NCBI GenBank assembly: GCA_011364925.1
Contig: RDOA01000064.1
Span: forward strand, 1-17,421
Source: Promethearchaeota archaeon
Lineage (GTDB): Archaea; Asgardarchaeota; Lokiarchaeia; Sigyniarchaeales; SOKP01
Length of the DNA stretch: 17,421 nt
Reading direction: 5' to 3'
The translations under genes and the position numbers were made by a program. The notes beneath the pieces were generated by a model, which was not told the origin of the DNA, did not search any database, and worked only from the letters and a program-made list of their open reading frames with translations. Below are positions 12,236 through 17,393 of the stretch, one piece after another. How positions within the stretch are numbered: position 1 is the first letter of the stretch; each line of letters opens with the position of its first letter.

Positions 12236-12376
12236 TTATTTTTGCTTCTCCTCTACCTTAAGTTTTTGGTTCCAACACGAGAAGCAAATATAAGTTCCAT
12301 CTTCCAAAATCACAAGATCTTTTATTGAGCGAATCATTCCACATTTCTGACATTTTTCCTTTATATTTTGTATCAC
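12236..12376 (-). CDS. 46-aa zinc-finger microprotein (not in the ORF track): MIQNIKEKCQKCGMIRSIKDLVILEDGTYICFSCWNQKLKVEEKQK
   Basis: Manual translation from GTG at 12376 (alternative TTG at 12379) to TAA at 12236-12238. CQKCG and CFSC pairs; 24 nt downstream of the MBL gene. Confidence 0.85.
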   Translation of the reverse strand: MIQNIKEKCQKCGMIRSIKDLVILEDGTYICFSCWNQKLKVEEKQK

Positions 12377-12400
12377 CAATAAATTATCTCTTTAAGAATT

Positions 12401-13873
12401 TCAACTTAAATCTATTGTCTCATTTTTATTTGGAATTATTACATTAATTTCTGAATTGTCAAAATAATCTCTGAAAAAGAGGGGGTGTTCTGTATGAATG
12501 GGAACCAAATATTCAGGATTTACTGAATTAATAAAGTTAATTAAATGATGTGGCATTGCGTGTCCAGACGCGTGGATTTTGTAAGAAGGGATCCCGTGCT
12601 TTCGAAAATAGTGGTTTAATGTTCTATTATTATCGAGATATTCCTCAGTATAGGGATCAATACTGGATGAGATAAAAGCACCTTTCAAATTTTGATTTAT
12701 CTTCTCGATTATATCTTTTTGAAGAGATGTTATGCAAAAGAAAAATCCTTTTTGTAAATCTTTAATATCCCTTTGAGTTATAAACCTGTATCCTTTATGT
12801 TCAGAATACATTTTTTGTCTAATTTTTTCTTGCCATCGATATTTTACATTACCCCAAGAGAGAATTATTATGTGGTCGTCATCTATTATATTCGGATCCT
12901 TCATACTCGCATATATCTCATCTTTATTCATAACATAATAAAAATACGCATCTTTTTCAGTAATTATGAACTTCCAACCATATTTTTTCGCAATAAAGGA
13001 GAAAGTTCTGAATCTATCAAGGTTTAAACGATCGTATTTCACCAAGAAGAAATCAAACGGATTATCAACAAACAATTGTTCTAAATTCTGCTCTACAAAT
13101 TCCTCAGACTCAATTGTACCGCGATTAATATGCGTACCTTCACATATAAGAAGCTTTATCCTGTCAGTTTTATCTTTTTCTAGGTCTTGGTCACTAAGAT
13201 CTTTAGAGGGAGTATTACTCAAATTTTTTTTTATTTCTAACAAAAAGTCCTGCGTCATATTTGATAAGGGACCATGCATCCTAAAATCTCCAGAATACAC
13301 AACGATACCTTTTGAAGTTTTAATAATAAAACCATAAGCCGCGGGAATCGAATGATCTACATGAACAGGCACTATTTCTAAACCTTTGATATCAAGCACA
13401 TCACCTGTTCGAAAAAGTCTCCAATCTAACCCATCGTAGTTATTACAAATTGAATGTCTTGAAGATTTATAGTAAGCGGATATTATCTTTTTAGTAAAAA
13501 CTCCCGTATATATAGGAATAGTTCTGTTAGTGAATGAAAGCCCGTAAAAGTGGTCTTTATGAGGGTGACTTACCAGTATCCCATCTATATTCGTAGATGG
13601 TTCCTGAAATTTTTTGTCTTTGCTAGTTTTATAATTTAGGTATAAATTTTTAACAGAAAGATCTTCTGCCTTTGGTAATAACCCTAATTTTATTAGTTCC
13701 TTAATTGAGGATGGTTCCTCAAACTTTTCAAAGATATCGTTAAACTTCTTTATGTTTATTCCGAAATCAAGAAAAATTTTCACATCGTACTCGAAATCTT
13801 CCAATAATACATTATTTCCTCCAACTTCATTCACTCCCCCTAAAAAAGTAAGTCTTACACCTGTAGTTTTCAT
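12401..13873 (-). CDS. Metallo-beta-lactamase/beta-CASP nuclease, RNase J-like
   Basis: GGVNEVGGN, SHPHKDH (HxHxDH), VDHSIP, YSGDFR, CEGT, HASGH and VPIH motifs. Confidence 0.9.
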   Translation of the reverse strand: MKTTGVRLTFLGGVNEVGGNNVLLEDFEYDVKIFLDFGINIKKFNDIFEKFEEPSSIKELIKLGLLPKAEDLSVKNLYLNYKTSKDKKFQEPSTNIDGILVSHPHKDHFYGLSFTNRTIPIYTGVFTKKIISAYYKSSRHSICNNYDGLDWRLFRTGDVLDIKGLEIVPVHVDHSIPAAYGFIIKTSKGIVVYSGDFRMHGPLSNMTQDFLLEIKKNLSNTPSKDLSDQDLEKDKTDRIKLLICEGTHINRGTIESEEFVEQNLEQLFVDNPFDFFLVKYDRLNLDRFRTFSFIAKKYGWKFIITEKDAYFYYVMNKDEIYASMKDPNIIDDDHIIILSWGNVKYRWQEKIRQKMYSEHKGYRFITQRDIKDLQKGFFFCITSLQKDIIEKINQNLKGAFISSSIDPYTEEYLDNNRTLNHYFRKHGIPSYKIHASGHAMPHHLINFINSVNPEYLVPIHTEHPLFFRDYFDNSEINVIIPNKNETIDLS

Positions 13874-14083
13874 TTTGTCTTTACGAGTTCAAATTATTTT
13901 TTATCGTTTACTACTTTTATGTAGAGATTAAACAATTTAATTACCAACCAATTTCTTTAAAAATTTTTCTCTTAATTAACAAATCATTCTTGAAATTTTT
14001 TCGATTTCTAGAAGTAGAATGGTAATTGATGGATTAAGCTAGTAAATCTAAGAATTTTTAGAAATAATTCAACCATATTTTAC

Positions 14084-14200
14084 AAAAAAAAAGGAAAAGG
14101 AGCTACAATTCGAGCCTATTTATTTTAGGTTAAGAGAGAATTAAACTCAACGAGTTTAATAGAGGGCGAAATCCAATGTTAGCTCGAATTTTACTACCTC
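14084..14200 (-). ncRNA. Candidate stand-alone structured small RNA (~115 nt)
   Basis: TATA box 22 nt upstream of G14200. The ends pair (AATTCGAGC/GCTCGAATT, plus GAG/CTC). It has an internal perfect 9-bp hairpin and ends in U9. No ORF with a start codon was found. Confidence 0.55.
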
Positions 14201-14222
14201 AATATTGTATTTATTTTTTAAT

Positions 14223-14251
14223 TATTTAAAATCGATTGGTATCGATTTTAA
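14223..14251 (-). promoter_or_regulatory. TATA box (TTTAAATA, 14230-14223) overlapped by a perfect 11-bp inverted repeat
   Basis: TTAAAATCGAT-tggt-ATCGATTTTAA at 14226-14251. Confidence 0.6.
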
Positions 14252-14316: not shown

Positions 14317-15753
14317 CTATAATTGGTTTTTTAAATCGAGTGTTTTGTATCTAATCGGAGAGTTCGTCCCTCGTTCCAAGTAAAAAAACTCACATTTTTG
14401 AGGTTTAAAGTTATTTTTTAAGAATTTTACAATTTCTAATCCTTTAGAAAACTCGTCGCAGATAAAGATATCAATGCTGATGTAACCATGTTCAGGCCAA
14501 GTATGAATTGCTGCATGACTTGTCTTAAGTATAGCAACAGAACTAAATCCATGTGGTTTATAGTGGTGATGAAATACATCAAGAACTGTTAAACCTGCCG
14601 AAACTAAAGCATTATAAAATGTGTCTTGAATGTTTTTACTCTCGAGTAAATAGTTTTGATTTTCAAAGTGCATTTCACCAATGAAGTGATATCCAAGAGG
14701 GCGAAAAGGGAGTGTGTCTTGAATTTTTACTTCGGAAGTATAAATTGGATTAAGTTTTAGGCTTAAATCATCCCCTATTGAACTTACTGCGCGTGTTAGT
14801 TGTAGATAATATAGATGGCTAAATTGCCCTAAAATGCTCGCTCCTTTATAAATGTTGAAGTAAGGGATCATTTCATTGATTGTAAATCCATGATCTAAAA
14901 TTGATAATTGTAGCTGAAGCATTTCTTTTGGGGGTTTGTTTCCAAAGCATAAAAGGCATTTTTTTCCAATAACATCGTGCCAACCTCCATCAATTTTAAT
15001 TGAAGTCCTTAACACTTGACGAGCTCTTTTTAGAAACAATCTTAATCCCTCATTGGTATATGGAGGATCCATAATCACGATGTCATATTCATTAACTACA
15101 TCTTTGGGACAAGCTTCTCTGAGATCAAAGGGGATCACATTGAAATTTTTGAGTGATAATCTTGAAGCAGTCTTTGAAAGGAAGTCAATAATGTTTGGAT
15201 CAATATCAATAACAGTAATTTTTTCAGCAAGGTCTAATAACCCAACGGCTATAGAGGTTGCATCATCATCGCCTAGAAAGATCATCTTTTTCCCTTCAAT
15301 ACTCCCCTTTTTTAATAAGTAAAACACACGATTAATAACTGTAGCGGGAGTAGCATGAGATTGATCCAACGCAAAATCGGGTTCTGGGCGTTCGTTTAAG
15401 ATATCTGTTATTTTCATTATTCCCTTTAAGTGTTCAGGAATTTCAGGCGTAGATACATCTAGAATGCCTGGAAGAGGATCAAATTCAAATCTCAAACCAA
15501 GATTTTTCCTAATCCATTCCCTTCCTGTATCCCCAAGAAAATTTTTTTTCTCAATAATATTAGCTTTTACTAATTCACCCCGAACAGCAGCAAGAGCTGG
15601 GATCGCAATTCCAGTTTTTTGCGACACTTTTTTGTTTTTTAATGAAGGGAAGCGATACATGGCGAGAAGAATTGATAAAACACCTTCAATGCCCTCTGCG
15701 AGTTGAGCTCTTTCAGCTATTAAAGTAAGATTTTCTTCTATTTTTAGATCCAT
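14317..15753 (-). CDS. Fusion: BpsA-like (N4-bis(aminopropyl)spermidine synthase family) aminopropyltransferase + pyruvoyl-dependent S-adenosylmethionine decarboxylase proenzyme
   Basis: BpsA-family motifs RPEPDFALDQ, FLGDDD, VIDID, FDLR and DPPYT. SpeD motifs GYHFIGE and TSHAAIHTWPEHGYISIDIFIC. One continuous frame. Confidence 0.88.
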   Translation of the reverse strand: MDLKIEENLTLIAERAQLAEGIEGVLSILLAMYRFPSLKNKKVSQKTGIAIPALAAVRGELVKANIIEKKNFLGDTGREWIRKNLGLRFEFDPLPGILDVSTPEIPEHLKGIMKITDILNERPEPDFALDQSHATPATVINRVFYLLKKGSIEGKKMIFLGDDDATSIAVGLLDLAEKITVIDIDPNIIDFLSKTASRLSLKNFNVIPFDLREACPKDVVNEYDIVIMDPPYTNEGLRLFLKRARQVLRTSIKIDGGWHDVIGKKCLLCFGNKPPKEMLQLQLSILDHGFTINEMIPYFNIYKGASILGQFSHLYYLQLTRAVSSIGDDLSLKLNPIYTSEVKIQDTLPFRPLGYHFIGEMHFENQNYLLESKNIQDTFYNALVSAGLTVLDVFHHHYKPHGFSSVAILKTSHAAIHTWPEHGYISIDIFICDEFSKGLEIVKFLKNNFKPQKCEFFYLERGTNSPIRYKTLDLKNQL

Positions 15754-17252: not shown

Positions 17253-17305
17253 ATGGGTGATTTAATTTAAATCATGGATTTAATTAAATCCACCATTTAA
17301 TTAAA
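17253..17305. promoter_or_regulatory. Array of palindromic operator-like sites (core ATTTAATTAAAT)
   Basis: TGATTTA-att-TAAATCA (17258-17274), perfect TGGATTTAATTAAATCCA (17275-17292), partial ATTTAATTAAA (17295-17305). The arsR TATA box TTTATATA lies at 17230-17223. Confidence 0.7.
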
Positions 17306-17393
17306 AAAAATAGAGTTAGAAAGTTTAATGTGGTAATTAATATTAGGTCTTTCAATAATTCAAATAAAATAAAAAAAGATATTAGGTAAAAAA

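What the first reader, a model, noticed from the sequence alone, without database searches (positions are those of the whole stretch)
14084..14251. Candidate novel ~115-nt structured ncRNA gene upstream of the RNase J-like nuclease
Seen on the minus strand: TTTAAATA (14230-14223), with G14200 at the same spacing as the leaderless LRR starts. The predicted RNA is GAGGUAGUAAAAUUCGAGC…GCUCGAAUUGUAGCUCCUUUUCCUUUUUUUUU. Its ends pair in a perfect 9-bp helix extended by GAG/CUC. The helix encloses a perfect 9-bp hairpin (AUUAAACUC-GUU-GAGUUUAAU), a small CCUA/UAGG hairpin, and unpaired pyrimidine-rich linkers (UUUCGCCCUCU, UCUCUCUU). It ends in U9, an archaeal-type terminator. Inference: a discrete small RNA with a closed-end, multibranch layout loosely like Y/vault RNAs, or an attenuator for the nuclease gene. 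I do not recognise it as a known family.
Basis: partly seen in the sequence, partly recalled or inferred. Interest (0 to 1): 0.8.

Follow-up and report, generated by a model that had tools for sequence, protein, structure and literature searches.

The report
New intron-bearing small RNA in Lokiarchaeia
This is a real, uncatalogued small RNA gene found in nearly every genome of one family of Asgard archaea; many copies carry tRNA-type introns, and its exposed bases match a short stretch of the cell's own small ribosomal RNA, so it may help fold (or hold open) the ribosome during assembly, a job so far known only from eukaryotic RNAs.

Summary
Confirmed and extended. The ~105-113-nt RNA (14200 to ~14090, minus strand) is one of two copies in this genome and belongs to a family found in 122/131 genomes of its own Promethearchaeia (Loki) family, 1-9 copies each, and in none of the other Asgard families searched. 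There is no Rfam hit. The closing stem and 9-bp hairpin covary strongly. A TATA box sits about 30 nt upstream on this strand only. A 19-nt single-stranded core is near-invariant. Forty homologues carry 29-52-nt inserts at two fixed core positions. All have bulge-helix-bulge geometry and restore the core exactly when removed (28/28 unselected versus 6/104 chance matches), so they are tRNA-type introns. The pyrimidine strands flanking the hairpin match 15 contiguous nt of the host's 16S helix 22 (4/2000 and 12/5880 nulls; best gap-free site in the genome), and the rest of the core matches helix 23 nearby. Best reading (about 55%): a stand-alone RNA that pairs with the 16S platform, snR30-like but not H/ACA or C/D. 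Attenuator, MITE and Y RNA readings fail. Transcript and target are untested. First readers of this scan noted the same element in other genomes, without the introns or the 16S match.

The parts
14223..14230 (-). TATA box of the RNA gene
   Evidence: Sequence. Across 141 members, 89 TATA-like hits fall in one 4-nt bin at -32..-29 on this strand, with no peak on the other strand.
14182..14200 (-). 5' strand of closing stem P1 (outer helix plus inner 9-bp helix); predicted 5' end about 14200
   Evidence: Fold; covariation. The 5' end is inferred from TATA spacing.
14171..14179 (-). Core part 1 (ACAUUGGAU); intron site B lies between 14171 and 14170 in homologues
   Evidence: 89-100% conserved per column in A3; introns.
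14161..14170 (-). Core part 2 (UUC + GCCCUCU); intron site A lies between 14168 and 14167 in homologues; GCCCUCU is complementary to 16S nt 609-615 (helix 22)
14140..14160 (-). Hairpin P3, 9 bp, variable loop
   Evidence: All pairs show double-sided changes in A2/A3. Absent in a minimal paralogue class.
14132..14139 (-). Pyrimidine tract (UCUCUCUU here, UCUCUCCC consensus), complementary to 16S nt 616-623
14097..14115 (-). 3' strand of closing stem P1
14084..14096 (-). U-rich tail, probable archaeal terminator
   Evidence: Sequence; a U/C-rich tail is conserved in the family. Terminator function is inferred.
13954..13963 (-). Separate TATA box of the downstream nuclease gene (not part of the RNA)
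   Evidence: 84% identity in 10 relatives against 60% for the spacer between.
12401..13873 (-). Neighbour: RNase J-like MBL/beta-CASP nuclease (Lactamase_B_2 + RMMBL; below the RNase J curated cut-off)
14317..15753 (-). Neighbour: BpsA-like plus AdoMet decarboxylase fusion; not linked to the RNA (most relatives have another gene here)

Best explanation
A free-standing, TATA-driven ~105-135-nt RNA specific to one Lokiarchaeia family. A long closing stem and a capping hairpin hold a C/U-rich loop open. SHOWN: gene family, fold, strand, promoter position and BHB-type introns at two core sites. STRONGLY INFERRED: the tRNA splicing endonuclease removes the introns, so the working RNA has one contiguous 19-nt core. 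INFERRED: the loop base-pairs in trans with the 16S central domain. GCCCUCU pairs with nt 609-615 and the tract after P3 with nt 616-623 (5' strand of helix 22), the target turning toward the closing stem as in snR30. AUUGGAUUUC, or the whole contiguous core in a second register, pairs with the helix-23 loop about 35-40 nt further on. The likeliest role is a modification-independent chaperone that holds the nascent helix 22/23 strands until their partner strand and uS15/uS11 are in place (about 40%). The next is a factor that arrests or marks small subunits for storage or decay (about 15%).
For: Family and fold; 22/22 pairs with double-sided change, 0/500 shuffles; G-U 161 versus A-C 37; TATA peak. 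Introns: 40/40 restore the core exactly with a 4-bp central helix, 28 of them not selected on that motif, against 6/104 chance matches with the same flanks. Intron-bearing and intron-less copies are up to 98% alike, with at least 4-5 gains or losses per site. Two EndA genes in the genome. 16S match: best site in 16S+23S, 4/2000 dinucleotide shuffles of the rRNA, 12/5880 permutations of the guide. Only 2 sites of that score in 7.8 Mb of genome, the gap-free one in the 16S gene. Three-part match 0/3000 guide shuffles; the helix-23 part alone 170/5000. The 15-mer is the same in all 24 typical 16S genes read from this family and differs in the f2, f6 and f7 genes read. One member's helix 23 (G129) is a perfect complement. 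P3-less paralogues match helix 23 better. Opening the site costs about 9 kcal/mol in the mature fold and 3-5 in the nascent one, against about -12 and -9 to -13 for the two duplexes.
Against: The 16S site was found post hoc after several other pairings had been tried. The contiguous core alone does not beat shuffles against rRNA (17/200; 10/100 and 18/100). No guide-target covariation could be shown: the helix-22 site does not vary in the family, and no compensated homologue was found in other Lokiarchaeia. The helix-23 duplex has a U-U mismatch and a wobble in most members, and ACA at the core's 5' end is unexplained. Other lineages have nearly the same 16S region (three-part score 19.5-22.5 versus 23) yet no detectable RNA, so it cannot be a universal assembly need. 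The 3' tract is C/U-variable and would pair with many purine runs. No protein partner was identified.
Confidence: 0.55

Rival explanations
1. Protein-binding RNA (sponge, scaffold or decoy, in the manner of Y, vault, 6S or CsrB RNAs). The invariant loop is read by a protein such as an MBL nuclease, an Sm ring or RNA polymerase, and the 16S match is chance.
For: Invariant sequence including bases not explained by perfect pairing; multiple paralogues per genome; 6S-like outline of stem, bubble and hairpin. About 44 of 114 members adjoin an MBL-fold gene: 29 an RNase Z-like one, 15 the RNase J-like one.
Against: The 16S match passes three nulls. No TROVE gene. Sm-like site in only 20/103. MBL adjacency may be inherited synteny from two ancestral loci, and the RNase Z-like gene has no RNA beside it in f2.
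Confidence: 0.3
2. Trans-acting regulator of mRNAs that uses its C/U-rich seeds on purine-rich ribosome-binding or coding sites.
For: C-rich loop seeds are typical of such sRNAs (own knowledge: RsaE, AbcR). One mRNA site scores as high as the 16S site, with a 4-nt gap (C33:44510, codons 9-15 of a 133-aa gene).
Against: The seed complements are rare upstream of genes: AGAGGG 0.6%, GGGAGA 0.2% of 3077 ORFs. Family-wide invariance suits an invariant target better than drifting mRNAs.
Confidence: 0.08
3. Cis attenuator or riboswitch for the nuclease gene.
For: It lies about 210 nt upstream of the nuclease start on the same strand in about 15 members.
Against: The nuclease has its own TATA box. The second copy lies downstream of a gene and faces a convergent one. 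Contexts vary in both orientations. Orthologous nucleases lack it.
Confidence: 0.02
4. MITE/REP-like selfish repeat.
For: 1-9 copies per genome; recent 85-95% identical duplicates in one genus.
Against: Orthologous positions are kept across species and genera. Duplicates share variable flanks (-60 to -148, +92 to +418), not fixed ends. The ends diverge while the loop is invariant. It has its own promoter and spliceable introns.
Confidence: 0.02

Closest known systems
snR30/U17 H/ACA snoRNA (PMC2664660; PMC12095548)
   Same: [quoted passage not shown] It chaperones the platform subdomain (h20, h22, h23, uS11, uS15), the same region matched here.
   Different: No H or ACA box and no K-turn. Single stem of about 110 nt. 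The predicted target is a contiguous 15-mer in h22 plus the h23 loop, not two distant ES6 motifs. No sequence likeness. Pairing here is predicted only.
Archaeal BHB introns (tRNA, rRNA, cbf5 mRNA, HVO_1309 5' UTR; PMC4090602, PMC7714728; Asgard tRNA introns 10.64898/2026.10.13.758758)
   Same: 4-bp helix between two 3-nt bulges at both splice sites; 29-52-nt hairpin introns; repeated gain and loss; an alpha2-beta2-type EndA pair in the genome.
   Different: The host is an orphan small RNA. The exon-side helix is only 1 bp, and in 10/40 the intron-side helix starts after a mismatch, so the motif is relaxed.
Archaeal H/ACA and C/D guide sRNAs
   Same: Small, TATA-driven, antisense to rRNA (predicted).
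   Different: No box C/D or ACA; no uridine at the target turn (C-G); target order reversed relative to a pseudouridylation pocket.
Y RNA / vault RNA / 6S RNA
   Same: Paired ends, large pyrimidine-rich loop, U tail, about 100-115 nt.
   Different: No Ro60-binding helix, no TROVE gene, no Rfam match. Invariant antisense-like core and introns.

Membership tests
Any Rfam 15 family | Covariance-model hit | tested here: not met
   No hit on the element at E<=5 in the window or E<=10 in six homologue loci.
H/ACA sRNA / snR30 | ACA box 3' of the hairpin | tested here: not met
   ACA in the last 25 nt in 5/103 members.
H/ACA sRNA / snR30 | Bipartite loop complementary to SSU rRNA | tested here: met
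   By computation only: 16S nt 609-623, 4/2000 and 12/5880 nulls.
H/ACA sRNA / snR30 | Unpaired target U at the pocket apex (guides only) | tested here: not met
   The turn lies at C615-G616 with no gap.
H/ACA sRNA / snR30 | Bound by Cbf5/L7Ae/Nop10 | not testable with these tools
   No conserved K-turn seen by eye in the alignments; binding untested.
C/D sRNA | Box C and box D | tested here: not met
   Box C in 2/103, CUGA in 28/103.
Y RNA | Ro60-binding helix and a TROVE gene | tested here: not met
   Motif 0/103; PF05731 not found in G000, controls rang.
Vault RNA | Major vault protein in the genome | tested here: inconclusive
   PF01505 not found, but no control genome rang.
SRP RNA substitute | Family lacks a normal SRP RNA | tested here: not met
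   SRP RNA found in 15/17 family genomes.
U5 snRNA | Loop-1 motif GCCUUUUA (from memory) in a closed stem | tested here: not met
   0/103; no Rfam hit. Only a partial likeness.
BHB intron (inserts in homologues) | 4-bp central helix with cuts after the second base of each 3-nt bulge, restoring the exon sequence | tested here: met
   40/40; control 6/104.
BHB intron (inserts in homologues) | Flanking helices on both sides (strict hBHBh') | tested here: inconclusive
   Exon side 1 bp; intron side at least 2 bp in 30/40. Relaxed form.
BHB intron (inserts in homologues) | Excised in vivo or by EndA in vitro | not testable with these tools
MITE/REP | Fixed conserved termini, dispersed non-orthologous copies | tested here: not met
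   No systematic search for target-site duplications was run.

The most novel reading that the evidence does not exclude
An archaeal, protein-box-free RNA chaperone of small-subunit assembly that pairs with 16S helices 22/23, the platform that eukaryotic snR30 chaperones. It is itself matured by tRNA-type splicing, and arose in one Asgard family independently of, or in parallel with, eukaryotic processing snoRNAs.
Probability: 0.4. Interest if true: 0.93.

Novelty: categorically new. Interest (0 to 1): 0.82.

Why it matters
[quoted passage not shown] A candidate in Asgard archaea with a named 15-nt target makes that question directly testable. Independently of the target, BHB introns have been reported in tRNA, rRNA precursors and two mRNAs (PMC7714728). 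Here they sit at two sites of an orphan small RNA, with near-identical intron-bearing and intron-less alleles: a compact system for how such introns arrive, which a 2026 preprint calls the open problem. The introns are also genome-level evidence that the RNA is made and that its contiguous core matters. I found no paper describing the family in 8 searches of the held library, which lacks many journals. The class 'categorically new' refers to the RNA family, which fails every membership test run; its proposed job has a eukaryotic analogue.

Tried and rejected
(2) Contiguous core against rRNA: not better than shuffles; the 23S helix-19 match seen in f2 was not among the best duplexes in the host's own partial 23S. 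(3) Homologues outside the family: CM 0/19 in other families of the order and 0/125 in a phylum draw; three weak f2 hits are not the element; patterns compensated to other lineages' 16S gave no overall excess over controls and no element-like hit among those inspected; nothing beside the RNase Z-like gene in f2. (4) Viruses: pattern hits in IMG/VR are chance, with no CM hit in the 85 loci scanned. (5) Template for a reverse transcriptase: no repeats of the core's complement in the genome. (6) ENE-type triple helix from the mirror-symmetric tracts: needs runs of protonated C and there is no purine tail in cis (inference). (7) SRP substitute, U5, Y, C/D, H/ACA, IS110 bridge RNA: see membership; the bridge RNA was rejected by inspection only. 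(8) Intron donors: no convincing match in this genome. (9) A BHB at the closing stem for circularisation was not seen by eye in four subfamilies. The tree accidentally holds three bacterial chance rows (L094, L148, L154) on long branches; they carry no intron label. No R-scape was available, and A3 counts lean toward the model that aligned them.

Full report
OBSERVATION. On the minus strand there is a TATA-like octamer at 14230-14223, a closing helix 14190-14182/14115-14107 extended by a short outer helix from 14200, a perfect 9-bp hairpin at 14160-14140 and a U run at 14092-14084. The fold is stronger than shuffles (z -3.05, 0/200). The small CCUA/UAGG hairpin is not in the predicted folds and is not conserved. 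Rfam finds nothing on it. It lies between a BpsA-AdoMetDC fusion and an RNase J-like MBL nuclease.

A FAMILY. The genome holds a second copy (C27:2745-2880) with a 57-nt stretch 98% identical and a different but re-paired closing stem. Named records place the family in Promethearchaeota (Lokiarchaeia), including Loki_b32 and E44_bin85; from memory this is GTDB family SOKP01, not checked. A covariance model hits 122/131 genomes of the family, in 13 genera, with 1-9 copies each, and 0/19 genomes of sister families. A phylum draw gave 24/25 against 0/125. These are 'not found in those searched'. In ten close relatives the RNA is 92-100% conserved in its stems and core, while the spacer downstream is 60%.

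STRUCTURE AND STRAND. All 22 modelled pairs show changes on both sides and beat 500/500 column shuffles and the slid controls (for a closer set). Kin are not independent and A3 is fitted to the model, but whole helices are rewritten in distant members. G-U pairs outnumber A-C 161 to 37. TATA-like words peak at -32..-29 on this strand (89 hits in 141 members) with no peak on the other. The unpaired core ACAUUGGAU-UUC-GCCCUCU is 89-100% conserved per column; part of that is by selection, since many members were first found with it. A C/U tract follows the hairpin. A minimal paralogue class keeps the stem and core but lacks the hairpin.

STAND-ALONE, NOT CIS. Among 114 members the neighbours vary and face either way. 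The two commonest are the 3' end of an RNase Z-like MBL gene (29) and the 5' side of the RNase J-like gene (15). The nuclease has its own conserved TATA box at 13963-13954, and more distant orthologues have no RNA upstream. Recent duplicates in one genus share flanks of variable length, as in segmental duplication and unlike a MITE.

INTRONS. Forty distinct members carry 29-52-nt inserts at one of two sites: after GGAU (30) or after UUUC (10). In every case removal restores the core exactly, the four exon bases before the 5' bulge pair with four intron bases before the 3' bulge, and both cuts fall after the second bulge base. That is the BHB rule (PMC4090602). Twelve of the 40 came from a pattern that presupposed the helix; the other 28 did not. 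Chance matches with the same flanks show the helix in 6/104. Consistent changes occur inside the helix (CCGA, GGUU, AAUU). The exon-side helix is only 1 bp, a relaxed form; the genome has two EndA genes, the enzyme type described as lenient. Intron-bearing and intron-less alleles can be 98% alike, and each site needs at least 4-5 gains or losses on the tree. The window's own copy has no intron. Splicing is inferred, not observed.

TARGET. Scanning the genome for the core's complement turned up the 16S gene. GCCCUCU matches 16S nt 609-615, and the tract after the hairpin matches nt 616-623 with no gap: the 5' strand of helix 22 (helix naming from my knowledge of the E. coli map). It is the best site in 16S+23S. 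4/2000 rRNA shuffles and 12/5880 guide permutations reach it, and only one other site in 7.8 Mb does. The window's own tract still ranks this site first, through wobbles. The 15-mer is constant in 24 16S genes of the family and differs in the other Lokiarchaeia read. AUUGGAUUUC matches the helix-23 loop 40 nt on, tied for best among 4600 positions (170/5000 shuffles), and the three-part match was reached by 0/3000 guide shuffles. The contiguous core also pairs with helix 23 over 12 bp, better in hairpin-less paralogues. These tests were devised after seeing the match, so I discount them at least tenfold. The core alone is not significant, and no guide-target covariation could be shown.

MECHANISM. 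Shown: gene, fold, strand, family range, intron geometry. Inferred: EndA/RtcB maturation (about 90%); pairing with the 16S platform (about 55%). The target would enter and leave at the hairpin and turn toward the closing stem, the geometry described for snR30's m1/m2 motifs (PMC2664660). snR30 chaperones helices 20, 22 and 23 with uS11/uS15 (PMC12095548). Before helix 22's partner strand is made, the site costs only 3-5 kcal/mol to open, which suits a co-transcriptional chaperone (about 40%). Holding or marking subunits for storage or decay, perhaps with a neighbouring MBL nuclease, is the alternative (about 15%). Restriction to one family argues against an essential ancient role. The main rival is a protein-binding RNA (about 30%).

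COMPARISON. It may work like snR30/U17 but is not a member: no ACA, no C/D boxes, no target uridine. It is not a Y RNA and not an SRP substitute. Its inserts meet the BHB-intron definition as far as sequence can show. Processing-type guide RNAs are stated to be unknown in archaea (PMC8339473), and known EndA substrates beyond tRNA and rRNA are two mRNAs (PMC7714728). First readers of this scan flagged the same element in other genomes, and other agents reported BHB-processed C/U-loop RNAs and mRNA mini-introns in other Asgard groups. Those notes are unchecked leads, read after my own intron result.

VERDICT. A real, new small-RNA family with tRNA-type introns and a specific, testable 16S target. 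Interest 0.82.

Noticed in passing
window 12236-12379 (-): Unlisted 47-aa ORF with two CxxC pairs (small zinc-finger protein) right after the nuclease gene.
   Followed up: partly
window 14317-15753 (-): BpsA-like domain fused to AdoMet decarboxylase, with T-SH in place of E-SH at the cleavage site; noted many times by the scan.
   Followed up: no
window 17261-17306: Overlapping AT-rich palindromes upstream of the ArsR-like gene, with a sub-threshold Histone3 Rfam hit; probably an operator.
   Followed up: no
window 13911-13924 (-): Small hairpin CTAC...GTAG in the nuclease leader, kept in close relatives.
   Followed up: no
L402-L405 (G133), about 200 nt downstream of the RNA copies: Degenerate second cores lacking the hairpin, with GCCCUCU-like bases joined directly to the C/U tract.
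   Followed up: no
L104, L098/L268; G067:C80, G068:C12, G071:C168: Neighbouring pairs of the RNA: about 300 nt apart in L104 and the three genomes, about 1.3 kb apart in L098/L268.
   Followed up: no
L253, L264, L266, L275: Minimal ~105-nt paralogue class without hairpin and tract, at its own conserved locus.
   Followed up: partly
G000 genome: No SRP RNA and only partial 16S/23S in this assembly although it is scored 100% complete; most tRNAs found carry introns.
   Followed up: partly
L356 (G036:C78): The 16S fragment is only 81% identical to the family's and reads like another lineage in helices 22/23: possible chimera or contamination.
   Followed up: no
16S nt 449-463 (L337 numbering): Second AGAGGGC site before helix 18, preceded by purines; second-best bipartite match and best for one paralogue's tract.
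   Followed up: partly
G077: A 100% complete family genome with no detectable copy of the RNA.
   Followed up: partly
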